Source of the DNA: the human T2T-CHM13v2.0 reference genome, Homo sapiens
NCBI RefSeq assembly: GCF_009914755.1
Contig: NC_060933.1
Strand: one strand, 5' to 3'
Length of the DNA stretch: 64,000 nucleotides
The notes below the pieces were generated by a model, which was given only the letters and a program-made list of their open reading frames with translations, had not been told where the DNA came from and made no database searches. Positions 24,494-28,412 of the stretch are shown here, piece after piece. Within the stretch, counting starts at the first letter, position 1, and each line of letters starts with the position of its first letter. Both the position numbers and the translations under genes were made by a program.

Positions 24494-25154
24494 CAGTCAT
24501 GTATCACTTAGCAACTGGGATACATTCTGAGAAATGCTTCGTTAGGCAGTTTCTTTGCGTGCAAACATCACAGAGTGTACTTACATGAACCCAGATGGCT
24601 CAGCCTGCTGCACACCTAGGCTACATGGGAGAGCCTATTGCTCCTGGGCTACAAACCTGTGCAGCATGGGACTGTACAGAATACTGTAACATTGTGATCT
24701 AAACCTATCTAAACATAGAAAAGGTACAGTAAAACTATGGTATAACACTGAAAAAATGGTACACCTGTATAGGACACTTCCCATGAATGGAGCCTGAAGA
24801 ACTGGAAGTTGCTCTGGGTGAGTAAATGGGGAGTGAATATGAAGGCCGAAGACATGACTCTGCACCACTGTAGACTTCACAGACACTGTACACTTAGGCT
24901 ACACTAAATTCTTAAAAACTTGTTTCTTTCTTCAGCAATAAACTATTCTTAGCTTACCGCAACTTTCAAATTTGATAAACCTTTTATTTTTGTTGAACTT
25001 TTGGACTATTACAATCAATGCTTTGCCTAAAACACATTGTACAGCGGTACAAAAATATCTTCTTTCACTATATCCTTATATCATAAGCTTTTCTATTTTA
25101 ATTTTTTAATTTTTTTTTACTTTTTAAACTTTTTTGTTAAAAACTGAGGCACAC
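24494..25154 (+). mobile_element. Tigger3b, left part
   Basis: TA+cagtcatg terminus, cattctgagaaatg, cctattgctcctgggctacaaacctgt. Confidence 0.85.
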
Positions 25155-25417
25155 TGCCACCCAGACACTTGTCCTGGTCACTTCAACCCCTGGCTCACTG
25201 TTGTGCTGGTGTGAATGCAAACCCCGCTCTCTGGCTGCCAAGCATGCATGTGGCCAGGACAGCAAATCAAGCATTCAAGCTCCAGGCAAGAGGTCTTCTC
25301 AGGTTCCCAAACAGGCTTTCCAGAATTCCCCCAAGACACTGAGACTCAGCCCCTTCAAGGCCTTGCTGCCAAAGAGAATCAGAGAGGGGATCGGGGAGCC
25401 GTTCAGACTCTCCAGCC

Positions 25418-25596
25418 CAAGCTTGTCAGTGCACAGCTCAACACAAATTTGTAAACTTTCTTAAAACATTATAAGATTATTTTTTGCTTTTTTTTTTTAA
25501 GCTCATCAACTATCACTAGTGTTAGTGTATTTAATGTGTGGACCAAGACAATTCTTCCAATGTAGCCCAGGAAAGTCAAAAGATTGGACACCCCTG
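25418..25596 (-). mobile_element. MER30 with internal deletion
   Basis: Both termini present (caagcttgtc ... ttggacacccctg); TSD ctccagcc/ctctagtc. Confidence 0.85.
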
Positions 25597-26819
25597 CTCT
25601 AGTCTCTTCTGTAGTGAAAATGGACTTGTACCCAAAGAGGCAACTCACTGTCCACAAGGACACCATCCCAGATGCTGAGCATCAACCTCCTGCCTCCCTG
25701 GAACAGACCTTATCTGAATCCCATCAAAGCCCACATTGTCCTCCAGCCTCTAACGTCCAGACATGTGCCAGAATAGCCCCTCAGAACTGTCTTGATGAGA
25801 TGGGACAAGGGGTGGTGGAGATCCAGGTTCAGAATGGCCGCCTTATCCCTGACTTCTGAGAGGTCTGTACCTGCTGGTTGGAGCCCTCACTCCTTAGGAG
25901 GCTTGGCCCATGTCCCAGGAAGTGCCCCCTAAAACGACCTTCCGGTCTCTTCCTCCTCTGAGGGGAGTGCCCTGGAATGAGTCCCTCTGTGCTAAGGAAC
26001 ACGACCTCCATTCGCACAACCAGGCTGACTGGCGCCCTGTGCCCGGAGGCAGGAAGAGACGCAGGATCCAGCTTGTGTCTGTGCGTCTGTGTTTCTCCAG
26101 CTGTGGTGCCTGTGCAAAGAGTGGAACCTCAAAGAACACTGGGTGGTCAACACACGGACACAGCACCCAATACAAGTATGTATGTTTAAGCTGAATAACA
26201 ATGTCATATAAAAATGTTATTTCATTTTATAAGAAAATTGAGTTAAATTTTGTAAGGGCGTTAAAATATAATTTTAATAGGAAGCTATGAAAATTATCTA
26301 CACTTGGTGTACAAATGACTGAATTTTGGGTAACTCTGTAAAAGCCACTTATGGGTGTAAAGAGGGGTCTGTCACTTACTTTATAAGACATCGACTTCCA
26401 AATCTGTGGTGTTTTTAACCAGTGCCCTCTGGTGATACTAACATTTCTTAGCCTGAAGGAGCATTTCCATGGAAACCATAATAGAGATTTCGCTAACTTT
26501 GGATTAAAATAATTATAAAATTGCTTGGTTGGTTTATGCTCGTTAACCAAATGCTCCTACAGATAGCATATTGCACATGTGTTTTGATGTGTTCTTTCAT
26601 CTAAGGTCAATTTCCCTTAGTTTATTCATCAAATTTTATTTACTTTAGATAAAAGAGACCTTGTAGTTAGCATGTGCTCTATGAATCTGTACTTTGTTAG
26701 AAATACAAACTCTCAGACAAAACCCTGACCTATTTTATCAAAATCTGACCTATTTCATTAAAATCTGGATTTAAAATAATATTTCCAGGTGATTCATATG
26801 CACATTAATGATTGTTACT

Positions 26820-27089
26820 AGCTCTGTCACCCAGGCTGGCGTGCAATGGCACAATCTTAGCTCACTGCAACCTCTGCCTCCCAGGTTCAAGTGATTCTCC
26901 TGCCTCAGCCTCCAGAGTAGCTGGGATTACAGGTGTGTGCCACCACGCCCAGCTAATTTTTGTGTATTTAGTGGAGATAAGGATTCACCATGTTGGCCAG
27001 GCTGGTCTCGAACTCCTGGCCTCAAGTGATCTGCCCACCTCAGCCTCCCAAAGTGCTAGGATTACAGGTGTGAGCCACCATGCCCAGCC
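26820..27089 (-). mobile_element. AluS lacking its 3' end/poly(A)
   Basis: Antisense Alu beginning abruptly at gctctgtcacccaggctgg. Confidence 0.9.
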
Positions 27090-27572
27090 GGTATTCTATT
27101 CTTAAGAGGATAAAAAGTTATATGGGTGTACTGATTTGTCAAAAAGGTACAATAAAGATTATACATGTCAATGCACATACATCTTATCTTATAAAAATAA
27201 AAAAATAAAGGGATGGGGAATGAGCTGAAGTATAGATGAAGCAGAAATAGCACATGATGAGTAGTTGTTGAGGCTGAGTGTCAGGTCTATTACACCATTT
27301 TGTTTATTTTGTATATGTTTAAAATGTTCTGTAATAAAACACTTGTCTAAAAAGACAAAGTTTATCCATAACATTAGCTCTTAAGATTTTGGCTACCTTT
27401 GGAGAGGAAGAAGGAAGAAAGTGGATGTCAGAAGCATGAACAAGGCTGATTCTATCTTGTGGTTACAAAAATGTATTTGCCTTGTAATAATTCACTGAGC
27501 TTTATCTTAATGCTTTGTGCATGTACTTCTGTATGCATATTATGTATCAATAAAAATTTAAATATTAAAGAG

Positions 27573-28412
27573 AAAAACTGAAGCACACACATTAGCTGAG
27601 GCCTACACAGGGTCAGGTAATTAATATCACTGTCTTCTACCTCCACATCTTGTCCCACTGGAAGGTCTTCAGGGGCAATAACAATAACATATGTGGAGCT
27701 GTCATCTCCTGTAATAACAATGTCTTCTTCTGGAATGAATCCCTCCTGAAGGACCTGCCTAAAGCTGTCTTACAGTTAACTCTTTTTTTTTTTTTTTTTT
27801 TTTTTTGAGACAGGGTATTGCTCTGCTCTGTCACCCAGGCTAGCAATCACAGTTCGCTGCAACTTTCAACTCGTGGGTTCAAGCAATCTTCCCGCCTCAG
27901 CCTCTCAAGTAGCTGAGACTGAATAAGCTGAGGCTTATTTTTTAAATTTAGTTTTATTTTTTGTAGAGGTAGGTCTCAGTATGTCACTCAGGCTGGTCTC
28001 AAACTCCTGGCCTAAAGTGATCCTTCTGCCTTGGTCTCCCAAAGCACTGGGATTATAGGCATGAGCCACCACATCTGGCCAACTTTTTTTTTTTTTAAAT
28101 AAGTAGTACACTCTAAAATAACAGAAAGTATAGTATGTTAAGTACATAAACCAATAACACAGCCATTTATTATTATCAAGTAATTATGTACTATATATAA
28201 TTATATGTGTTATCCTTTTCTATGACTAGCAGCACAGGATGTTTGTTTACCTAGAATCACCACAAACATGTGAACAATGTGTTATACTACATTATAACAC
28301 CTATGATGTCCCTAGGTCATAGACACTTTTCAGCTCCATTATAATCTTATGAGACCACTATTGTACATGCAGGCTGTTGTTGATCAACATGTCATTATAA
28401 GGCACATGACTA
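27573..28412 (+). mobile_element. Tigger3b, right part (contains an Alu)
   Basis: Resumes at the consensus position where the left part stops (cacacattagc...gcctacacagggtcagg); ends ggcacatgact. Confidence 0.85.
27783..28080 (-). mobile_element. AluJ nested in Tigger3b
   Basis: Antisense Alu with poly(T); aact flanks. Confidence 0.85.

What the first reader, a model, noticed from the sequence alone, without database searches (positions are those of the whole stretch)
25139..27588. 2.4-kb composite segment retro-inserted into a Tigger3b fossil: probable orphan L1-mobilised transcript
Seen: Tigger3b stops at 25154 and resumes at the matching consensus position from 27573. A 16-bp duplication (aaaaactgaggcacac / aaaaactgaagcacac) brackets 2418 bp. 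The target reads ttgtt/aaaaa and the insert ends AATAAA + aatttaaatattaaagag. The insert is not one element: it has ~1 kb of GC-rich unique sequence, a MER30, AT-rich DNA, a MER5-like fragment, a tail-less Alu and two old L1M 3' ends. Known: a TSD of this size, TT/AAAA and a polyadenylated end are signatures of L1 target-primed reverse transcription, and L1ME/MER5 families are generally older than Tigger3. Inference: older repeats inside a younger one imply that an RNA from another locus, polyadenylated at an L1M AATAAA, was copied here antisense to FANCC. Repeat annotation would fragment and hide it.
Basis: partly seen in the sequence, partly recalled or inferred. Interest (0 to 1): 0.8.

Follow-up and report, generated by a model that had tools for sequence, protein, structure and literature searches.

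The report
Old retrocopy nested in a transposon fossil
A 2.4-kb piece inside a FANCC intron is an ancient LINE-1-made copy of the last exon of a repeated non-coding gene, later hit by two smaller mobile elements; it is an ordinary kind of genomic fossil.

Summary
A 16-bp target-site duplication (25139-25154 / 27573-27588, 15 of 16) brackets 2418 bp that split one DNA-transposon fossil. All 11 other copies of that transposon that I fetched read straight through the site. The nick site is TTTTT/AA.

The insert is not unique, and it is not a composite "orphan" transcript. Without a MER30-like element (25418-25596, own 8-bp duplication) and a tail-less Alu (26821-27092), it is about 1.95 kb. That 1.95 kb belongs to a low-copy family (about 50 first-look candidates in the genome) with the same order of parts.

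- **Genomic paralogs:** copies on chr19p12, 4p16.3, 18p11/21q11 and in the FRG2 duplicon carry introns and continue past the poly(A) site.
- **Retrocopies:** copies on chr2, chr15, chrY and this one stop at the same site, AATAAA plus 13 nt, followed by an A-run. The longer ones carry spliced upstream exons, and one skips an exon.

So this is a 5'-truncated, L1-made retrocopy of the terminal exon of a multi-paralog spliced transcript, antisense to FANCC. The MER30-like element and the Alu most likely came later.

Interest is low.

The parts
24494..25138 (.). Left part of the host DNA-transposon fossil (Tigger3-type by recall). It starts 'cagtcatg' after a TA at 24492-24493.
   Evidence: 40 scored copies at 72-75% identity, many starting at query position 13, which is window 24492; continuity in 11 of 11 other copies.
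25139..25154 (+). Left copy of the 16-bp target-site duplication, AAAAACTGAGGCACAC.
25155..25417 (+). Retrocopy, first piece (start of module D, GC-rich). 25410-25417 (ctccagcc) is the left copy of the MER30-like element's 8-bp duplication.
   Evidence: homology to family copies starts at 25154/25155 in 5 loci, at 25145 in 2 and at 25158 in 1..
25418..25596 (.). MER30-like short DNA transposon, ending ...gattggacacccctg. It is flanked by ctccagcc / ctctagtc (6 of 8).
   Evidence: 19 of 53 rows are dispersed matches of about 165 bp at 86-89% to insert positions 280-448; 5 of 5 family copies have a single, uninterrupted site.
25597..26817 (+). Retrocopy, second piece: the rest of the GC-rich part, then the AT-rich part. 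25597-25604 is the right copy of the MER30-like duplication. The RefSeq enhancer 25689-25858 (hub table) lies inside.
26818..27092 (-). Minus-strand Alu (26821-27091), complete at its 5' end. It lacks about 13 nt and its A-tail at the 3' end and has no duplication. A 3-nt filler 'cta' is present, and about 7-10 nt of family sequence ('agtgggggta') are missing at the site.
   Evidence: Metazoa_SRP hits on the minus strand at 26808-27088; 5 of 5 family copies carry the missing bases.
27093..27567 (+). Retrocopy, third piece, with AATAAA at 27549-27554 and the last transcribed bases ...AAATATTA at 27560-27567.
27568..27572 (+). Remnant of the poly(A) tail (AAGAG). It is followed by the A5 that opens the duplication.
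   Evidence: at this point genomic paralogs read CATAT..., while retrocopies read A-runs.
27573..27588 (+). Right copy of the 16-bp target-site duplication, AAAAACTGAAGCACAC.
27589..28412 (.). Right part of the host fossil, itself interrupted by another minus-strand Alu (about 27775-28105). It ends ...cacatgacta.
   Evidence: (SRP-like hit at 27964-28079).

Best explanation
The segment 25155-27572 is a 5'-truncated retrocopy made by LINE-1 target-primed reverse transcription. Its template was a polyadenylated, apparently non-coding transcript from a multi-paralog, multi-exon transcription unit. The intron-bearing genomic copies of that unit lie in duplicated regions: chr19p12, 4p16.3, 18p11/21q11 and the FRG2 duplicon.

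Proposed sequence of events:
1. L1 endonuclease nicked the bottom strand of an older Tigger-type transposon fossil at 5'-TTTTT/AA.
2. The RNA's poly(A) tail primed on the T-run.
3. Only the last ~1.95 kb of the RNA was copied, all of it within the terminal exon.
4. A second nick 16 bp away produced the duplication.
5. Later, a MER30-like hAT element (with an 8-bp duplication) and an Alu landed inside the copy. The Alu is atypical: it has no tail and no duplication, and a few target bases are lost.

The copy lies antisense to FANCC and is most likely inert.

**Shown:** the duplication, host continuity, the nick-site sequence, family membership, the shared poly(A) site, and the contrast between retrocopies and genomic paralogs.
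**Inferred:** the enzymology, the timing, and that the MER30-like element and the Alu arrived after insertion.
For: **Target site**
- TSD 15 of 16; only 2 matches in the window against 0.13 expected.
- 11 of 11 other host copies are uninterrupted at the site.

**Family membership**
- The three non-TE pieces of the insert recur contiguously and in the same order. The best copy, chr15:51,094,017-51,095,981, is 77-82% identical and lacks both the MER30-like element and the Alu.
- Only 48 and 54 first-look candidates were found genome-wide for the middle and 3' pieces.

**3' ends** (14 of 16 distinct loci gave a hit)
- 3 loci (chr15, chr2, chrY) plus the window have an A-run and an unrelated flank directly after ...AAATATT(A/G).
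- 8 continue with shared genomic sequence ('CAT..cagaataatagca').
- 3 are ambiguous.

**Sibling retrocopy with its own duplication**
- The chr2 copy has its own duplication of about 17 bp, 16 of 18 aligned columns by my reading of the two printed flanks.

**Splicing**
- In the chr19:21.12 Mb paralog, exons B, C1 and C2+D are separated by about 0.8 and 1.15 kb, with a pyrimidine tract and AG before exons and GTAATG after C1.
- More than 650 bp of non-Alu intron is shared with the chr4 paralog.
- The chr2 copy has A+B+C1+C2+D joined. The chrY copy has A+C1+C2+D, with B skipped. The chr15 copy starts at C1.

**Secondary insertions**
- The MER30-like element's 8-bp duplication and the Alu site were inspected in 5 of 5 family copies.

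**Order by divergence**
- Host copy pairs are 72-75% identical.
- The retrocopy's terminal branch is 0.095.
- MER30-like pairs are 86-89% identical.
- Giordano et al. 2007 (PMC1914374, passages read) place the Charlie12/MER30 burst after the main Tigger burst.
Against: - The tail remnant is only 5 nt (AAGAG).
- The window copy covers only one exon, so it carries no splice junction of its own.
- No parent closer than K2P 0.20 was found, and the parent gene is unnamed.
- No empty orthologous site could be examined.
- Clear duplications were not found for the chr15, chrY or chr21:23.0 copies.
- Late arrival of the MER30-like element and the Alu rests on parsimony and divergence. They could have sat in a lost parent paralog.
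- The copy's 5' end falls within 0-3 nt of the right breakpoint of an unrelated CCTG-microhomology deletion in the chr18/chr21 paralog. I cannot explain that coincidence.
Confidence: 0.85

Rival explanations
1. One reading: one orphan composite RNA was copied here in a single step. It already contained the MER30, the Alu, a MER5 fragment and L1M ends, and it was polyadenylated at an L1M AATAAA or carried along as an L1 3' transduction.
For: - The TSD, the nick site and the AATAAA end fit any L1-mobilised RNA.
- The parent paralog was not identified, so a lost parent carrying the MER30 and the Alu cannot be excluded.
Against: - All 5 family copies inspected at the two sites lack both elements. 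No other family locus compared shows aligned sequence there either.
- MER30-like copies are less diverged from each other (86-89%) than the retrocopy's own branch suggests (0.095).
- The Alu replaced target bases, which looks like a local event.
- Longer siblings run 5' into spliced exons, not into an L1.
Confidence: 0.07
2. The 1.95-2.8 kb unit is itself a non-autonomous, L1-dependent retroposon family (like SVA), not a retrocopied gene transcript.
For: - Several dispersed copies share a common 3' end and carry A-runs.
- The copies have variable 5' ends.
- No coding signal was found: no Pfam family reached its cut-off and no PDB chain matched at E up to 1.
Against: - Only 4 clear retrocopies were seen, against at least 8 DNA-level paralogs that read through the poly(A) site.
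- The paralogs have canonical introns, and one retrocopy skips an exon.
- Genome-wide candidates number only about 50, many of them segmental duplicates.
Confidence: 0.05
3. The segment arrived as DNA, by capture during double-strand-break repair or by duplicative transposition, and not through an RNA.
For: - Most family members did spread as DNA, in segmental duplications.
- The window copy has no splice junction of its own.
Against: - The copy ends exactly at the cleavage site used by the other retrocopies and does not continue into the shared downstream genomic sequence.
- It has a 16-bp duplication at a TTTTT/AA site.
Confidence: 0.03

Closest known systems
L1-mediated processed pseudogenes / retrocopies (5'-truncated)
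   Same: The copy has a 16-bp TSD and a TTTTT/AA nick site. It ends about 13 nt after AATAAA with an A-remnant. It is 5'-truncated, its siblings lack introns, and intron-bearing parents lie elsewhere. The Repbase review PMC5753468 (passages read) states that L1 mobilises other polyadenylated RNAs to give processed pseudogenes.
   Different: The parent looks non-coding and is itself a multi-paralog unit. This copy holds only part of the terminal exon, so it shows no processing of its own.
Orphan L1 3' transduction
   Same: Non-L1 sequence is inserted with L1 hallmarks and without any L1 body.
   Different: The 3' end is the unit's own poly(A) site. Longer siblings extend 5' into spliced exons A, B and C1. 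The chr2 copy's duplication abuts exon sequence, not an L1.
SVA-like composite non-autonomous retroposons
   Same: Both are non-coding RNAs mobilised by L1 to several loci.
   Different: There are only about 4 retrocopies. No hexamer or VNTR architecture was seen. The other copies are intron-bearing genomic paralogs spread by segmental duplication.
Non-classical (endonuclease-independent-like) Alu insertions, for the inner Alu only
   Same: The Alu is truncated, lacks a duplication and has extra non-Alu bases at the junction. PMC5402677 (passages read) lists these as NCAI features. A few target bases are also lost.
   Different: A classical insertion followed by a small deletion cannot be excluded. 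The Alu's 5' end is complete here.

Membership tests
L1 TPRT retrocopy (processed pseudogene) | Target-site duplication of about 7-20 bp that directly brackets the insert | tested here: met
   16 bp, 15 of 16 identical. 2 matches in the window against 0.13 expected. 11 of 11 intact host copies have a single site.
L1 TPRT retrocopy (processed pseudogene) | L1 endonuclease-type nick site (TTTT/AA-like) at the 3' junction | tested here: met
   The top strand reads ttgtt|AAAAACTG, so the bottom strand reads 5'-...CAGTTTTT/AACAA. The consensus motif itself is recalled.
L1 TPRT retrocopy (processed pseudogene) | The 3' end lies at a poly(A) site and is followed by an A-tail | tested here: met
   AATAAA is at 27549-27554 and the end at 27567. 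The tail remnant is only AAGAG. The same end point with longer A-runs is seen in the chr15, chr2 and chrY copies, while 8 genomic paralogs read through.
L1 TPRT retrocopy (processed pseudogene) | Lacks the parent's introns | tested here: inconclusive
   The window copy lies wholly within the terminal exon. Siblings on chr2, chrY and chr15 have their exons joined. The chr19:21.12 and chr4:0.30 paralogs have introns.
L1 TPRT retrocopy (processed pseudogene) | An identifiable parent locus | tested here: inconclusive
   The parent family was found. No single parent was: the nearest rows lie at K2P 0.20-0.24.
L1 TPRT retrocopy (processed pseudogene) | An empty orthologous site in an outgroup species | not testable with these tools
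   No primate genomes are on hand.
Orphan L1 3' transduction | The mobilised RNA starts in a source L1 and consists of that L1's downstream flank | tested here: not met
   Longer sibling retrocopies run 5' into spliced exons. The chr2 copy's duplication abuts exon A sequence. I did not run a specific L1 search on the parents' flanks.
Tigger3b (host; Tc1/mariner) | A high-copy family with fixed termini, TA flanks and terminal inverted repeats | tested here: inconclusive
   There are 5333 first-look candidates, and the scored copies are 72-75% identical. The left end reads TA+CAGTCATGT. The right end reads ACATGACTA, so only about 8-9 nt of inverted terminus survive and the right TA is unclear. 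The repeat finder found no terminal pair.
Tigger3b (host; Tc1/mariner) | A match to the Tigger3b consensus | not testable with these tools
No Repbase or Dfam library is on hand.
MER30 (non-autonomous hAT) | An 8-bp duplication and many dispersed copies | tested here: met
   The flanks read ctccagcc / ctctagtc, 6 of 8. 19 of 53 rows are dispersed matches of about 165 bp at 86-89%. The family name was not tested against a library.

The most novel reading that the evidence does not exclude
The source is an uncatalogued, alternatively spliced, primate non-coding transcription unit. It was amplified both as DNA (19p12, 4p16.3, 18p11/21q11, the FRG2 duplicon) and as RNA (at least 4 retrocopies). The GC-rich part of the FANCC-intron retrocopy has been co-opted as a regulatory element: the RefSeq enhancer 25689-25858 lies wholly inside it.
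Probability: 0.12. Interest if true: 0.35.

Novelty: new member of a known kind. Interest (0 to 1): 0.15.

Why it matters
The finding has little wider importance. It is a clean, well-dated example of nested insertions: host transposon, then L1-made retrocopy, then a MER30-like element and an Alu.

It shows that a stretch which looks like 'unique' intronic DNA can be a member of a low-copy retro-amplified family that repeat annotation may break into unrelated fragments.

It is useful for annotating the FANCC intron, and as a phylogenetic marker if the empty site is found in other primates. It also gives context for the RefSeq enhancer call inside it.

Tried and rejected
- **LTR idea.** The GC-rich part starts TG... 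and looked like a possible LTR. I rejected this because the full-length copies compared carry all parts in order, with no solo copies seen among the scored rows, and the unit ends in a poly(A) site.
- **KRAB zinc-finger 3' UTR idea.** Many paralogs lie at coordinates I recall as zinc-finger clusters. No C2H2 or KRAB motif (by regular expression) was found in any of 41 held loci, including 7-8 kb upstream of four genomic paralogs.
- **FRG2 itself.** The 4q35 paralog lies about 1.7 kb from an ORF that matches Pfam FRG2 (E 4e-70), but on the other strand. It is a neighbour, not the same gene.
- **Coding potential.** Seven window ORFs and four ORFs from paralogs gave no Pfam family above its cut-off. 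The weak rows were DUF2292 (E 0.12) and POB3_N (E 0.15). PDB gave 0 hits.
- **Rfam.** Only Alu-type hits (SRP, mir-1268/1285/3135) and one chance-level snoRNA row (E 0.69) were found. No lncRNA family matched.
- **Duplications of sibling copies.** Searches for the chr15, chrY and chr21:23.0 copies found nothing convincing.
- **Spliced chr18-type template.** I considered that the window copy came from a chr18-type transcript. I rejected this because that paralog keeps intron sequence before exon B, its junction is explained by a CCTG-microhomology deletion, and it lacks about 190 bp that the window copy has.
- **Pace and Feschotte 2007.** The paper was not held under the ids I tried.
- **Giordano et al. 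Table S2.** This table ranks each TE family. I did not open it, and it may bear on the relative ages of Tigger3b and MER30.
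Full report
**1. Observation**

- The 16-mer AAAAACTGAGGCACAC (25139-25154) recurs as AAAAACTGAAGCACAC (27573-27588). These are the only two matches with up to 2 mismatches in the 64-kb window. The expected number is 0.13, and 0 of 100 shuffles reached 2.
- The left flank (24480-25154) belongs to a high-copy repeat: 5333 first-look candidates, of which the 40 scored are 72-75% identical.
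- I fetched 11 other copies. In one search, 10 of 11 gave a right-flank match that starts within a few bases of the end of the left-flank match. In the MAFFT alignment, all 11 read through '...ttgttaaaaactaagacacaaacacacacattagcctaggcctacacagggtcagg'.
- The two host parts are therefore one element split at one site, and the 16-mer is a target-site duplication.
- The top strand reads ttgtt|AAAAAC, which is TTTTT/AA on the bottom strand.
- The host runs from about 24494 (TA+cagtcatg) to about 28412. The name Tigger3b could not be tested.

**2. The insert is not unique**

I searched the window's own genome with the three non-TE pieces of the insert.

- 25155-26170 returned 53 rows.
- 26165-26815 returned 50 rows from 48 first-look candidates.
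- 27093-27572 returned 42 rows from 54 first-look candidates.

The same loci recur in all three tables, with the pieces contiguous and in the same order. Examples are chr15:51,094,017-51,095,981 (77-82% identity), chr21:23.01 Mb, chr2:75.52 Mb, chr18:14.30 / chr21:12.37 Mb, chr19:20.18 and 21.12 Mb, chr4:0.30 Mb and chrY:13.85 Mb. There is also a block on 4q35, 10q26, 3p12, chr20, chr22 and the acrocentric short arms.

In a BLAST of the window against 11 loci, homology starts at 25154/25155 in 5 loci, at 25145 in 2 and at 25158 in 1, and it ends at 27564-27582. The insert is thus a member of a family of about 1.95 kb.

**3. Two secondary insertions**

- **MER30-like element.** Insert positions 280-448 match 19 dispersed places of about 165 bp at 86-89% identity. 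This element (25418-25596) is flanked by ctccagcc / ctctagtc. All 5 family copies inspected have one uninterrupted site.
- **Alu.** The minus-strand Alu (26821-27091; Rfam SRP hits) has a complete 5' end. It has no tail and no duplication. Three filler bases are present, and about 7-10 family bases that all 5 inspected copies keep are missing. These are features listed for non-classical Alu insertions (PMC5402677, passages). A later small deletion is the alternative explanation.

**4. Retrocopies versus genomic paralogs**

3' ends. Of 16 distinct loci probed, 14 gave a hit. After the shared '...AATAAAAATTTAAATATTA':
- the window, chr15, chr2 and chrY copies have A-runs and unrelated flanks;
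- 8 loci continue with shared sequence ('CAT..cagaataatagca'): chr19:20.18, chr4:0.30, chr18, chr21:12.37, 4q35, 10q26, chr13:23.94 and chr1:246.44;
- 3 are ambiguous.

The chr2 copy has its own duplication of about 17 bp, 16 of 18 aligned columns by my reading of the two printed flanks.

5' extensions. Other copies extend 35-815 bp further 5' than the window copy. The extensions fall into modules A, B, C1 and C2.
- In the chr19:21.12 Mb paralog, B, C1 and C2+D are separated by about 0.8 and 1.15 kb. A pyrimidine tract and AG precede the exons, and GTAATG follows C1.
- More than 650 bp of non-Alu intron are shared with the chr4 paralog.
- The chr2 copy joins A+B+C1+C2+D. The chrY copy joins A+C1+C2+D, skipping B. 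The chr15 copy begins at C1.

The family is therefore a spliced transcription unit that was duplicated as DNA, plus at least 4 retrocopies of its RNA. The window copy holds only the 3' 1.95 kb of the terminal exon.

**5. Placement and order**

- On a query-anchored alignment (13 rows, 1955 columns), the window copy has a terminal branch of 0.095. It sits near the base of a group (support 98/97) that also holds chr15, chr21:23.0 and the chr19:21.12 / chr4:0.30 / chr18 paralogs.
- K2P distances to the other 12 rows are 0.204-0.290. No single parent can be named.
- The paralog clade chr19:21.12 / chr4:0.30 / chr18 lacks about 190 bp (26353-26544) that the window copy keeps. The copy therefore probably predates that deletion. 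This is an inference.
- Nesting gives the order host, then retrocopy, then the MER30-like element and the Alu.
- Divergences agree with that order: host pairs 72-75%, retrocopy branch 0.095, MER30-like pairs 86-89%.
- Giordano et al. 2007 (PMC1914374, passages read) place the Charlie12/MER30 burst after the main Tigger burst.

**6. What it is not**

- No C2H2 or KRAB motif was found in any of 41 held loci.
- No Pfam family reached its cut-off and no PDB match was found for 11 ORFs.
- No Rfam lncRNA family matched.
- There is no sign of an L1 body at the 5' end of the longest sibling.

**7. Mechanism**

The mechanism is standard L1 target-primed reverse transcription of a cellular polyadenylated RNA, with 5' truncation. 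The Repbase review PMC5753468 (passages) describes this route to processed pseudogenes. The sense strand of the copy is the window's + strand, so it is antisense to FANCC, which lies on the - strand by the hub table. Its AATAAA cannot terminate FANCC transcripts. No function is indicated. The only hint is that RefSeq enhancer 25689-25858 (hub table) lies inside the GC-rich part.

**8. Verdict and limits**

This is a real feature of a well-known kind.

Open points:
- the parent's name;
- the empty site in other primates;
- repeat-library names (Tigger3b, MER30, MER5, L1M);
- whether the two inner elements could have come with the RNA;
- why the 5' end coincides, within 0-3 nt, with a deletion breakpoint in the chr18/chr21 paralog.

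Noticed in passing
window 26818-27092: The inner minus-strand Alu has no A-tail and no target duplication. It has a 3-nt filler and replaces about 7-10 nt that all 5 inspected family copies keep. It is a candidate non-classical (break-repair type) Alu insertion, or a classical one trimmed by a later deletion.
   Followed up: partly
window 25155; L031 (chr18:14.30 Mb) and L019 (chr21:12.37 Mb): The 5' end of the window retrocopy lies within 0-3 nt of the right breakpoint of an independent CCTG-microhomology deletion that fuses exon B to module D in the chr18/chr21 genomic paralog. The point also follows a splice-acceptor-like 'ccctag'. If breakpoints were uniform along about 2.7 kb, the chance would be roughly 0.3% (my arithmetic, no call). 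I have no explanation.
   Followed up: partly
L036 (chr4:193,393,000-193,401,999): 769-1449 (-) and 3175-6064 (+): One branch of the family (4q35, 10q26, 3p12, chr20, chr22, acrocentric short arms) lies next to FRG2. A 226-aa ORF matching Pfam FRG2 (E 4e-70) sits about 1.7 kb away on the opposite strand, so this paralog travelled with the FRG2 duplicon.
   Followed up: partly
window 25689-25858: The RefSeq 'enhancer' (hub table) lies wholly inside the GC-rich part of the retrocopy. If the call is real, the activity comes from retro-inserted sequence.
   Followed up: no
window about 27775-28105: A second minus-strand Alu interrupts the right part of the same host transposon. It has a long T-run at 27776-27806.
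   Followed up: no
On the tree this reads as a derived deletion in that paralog clade.
   Followed up: partly
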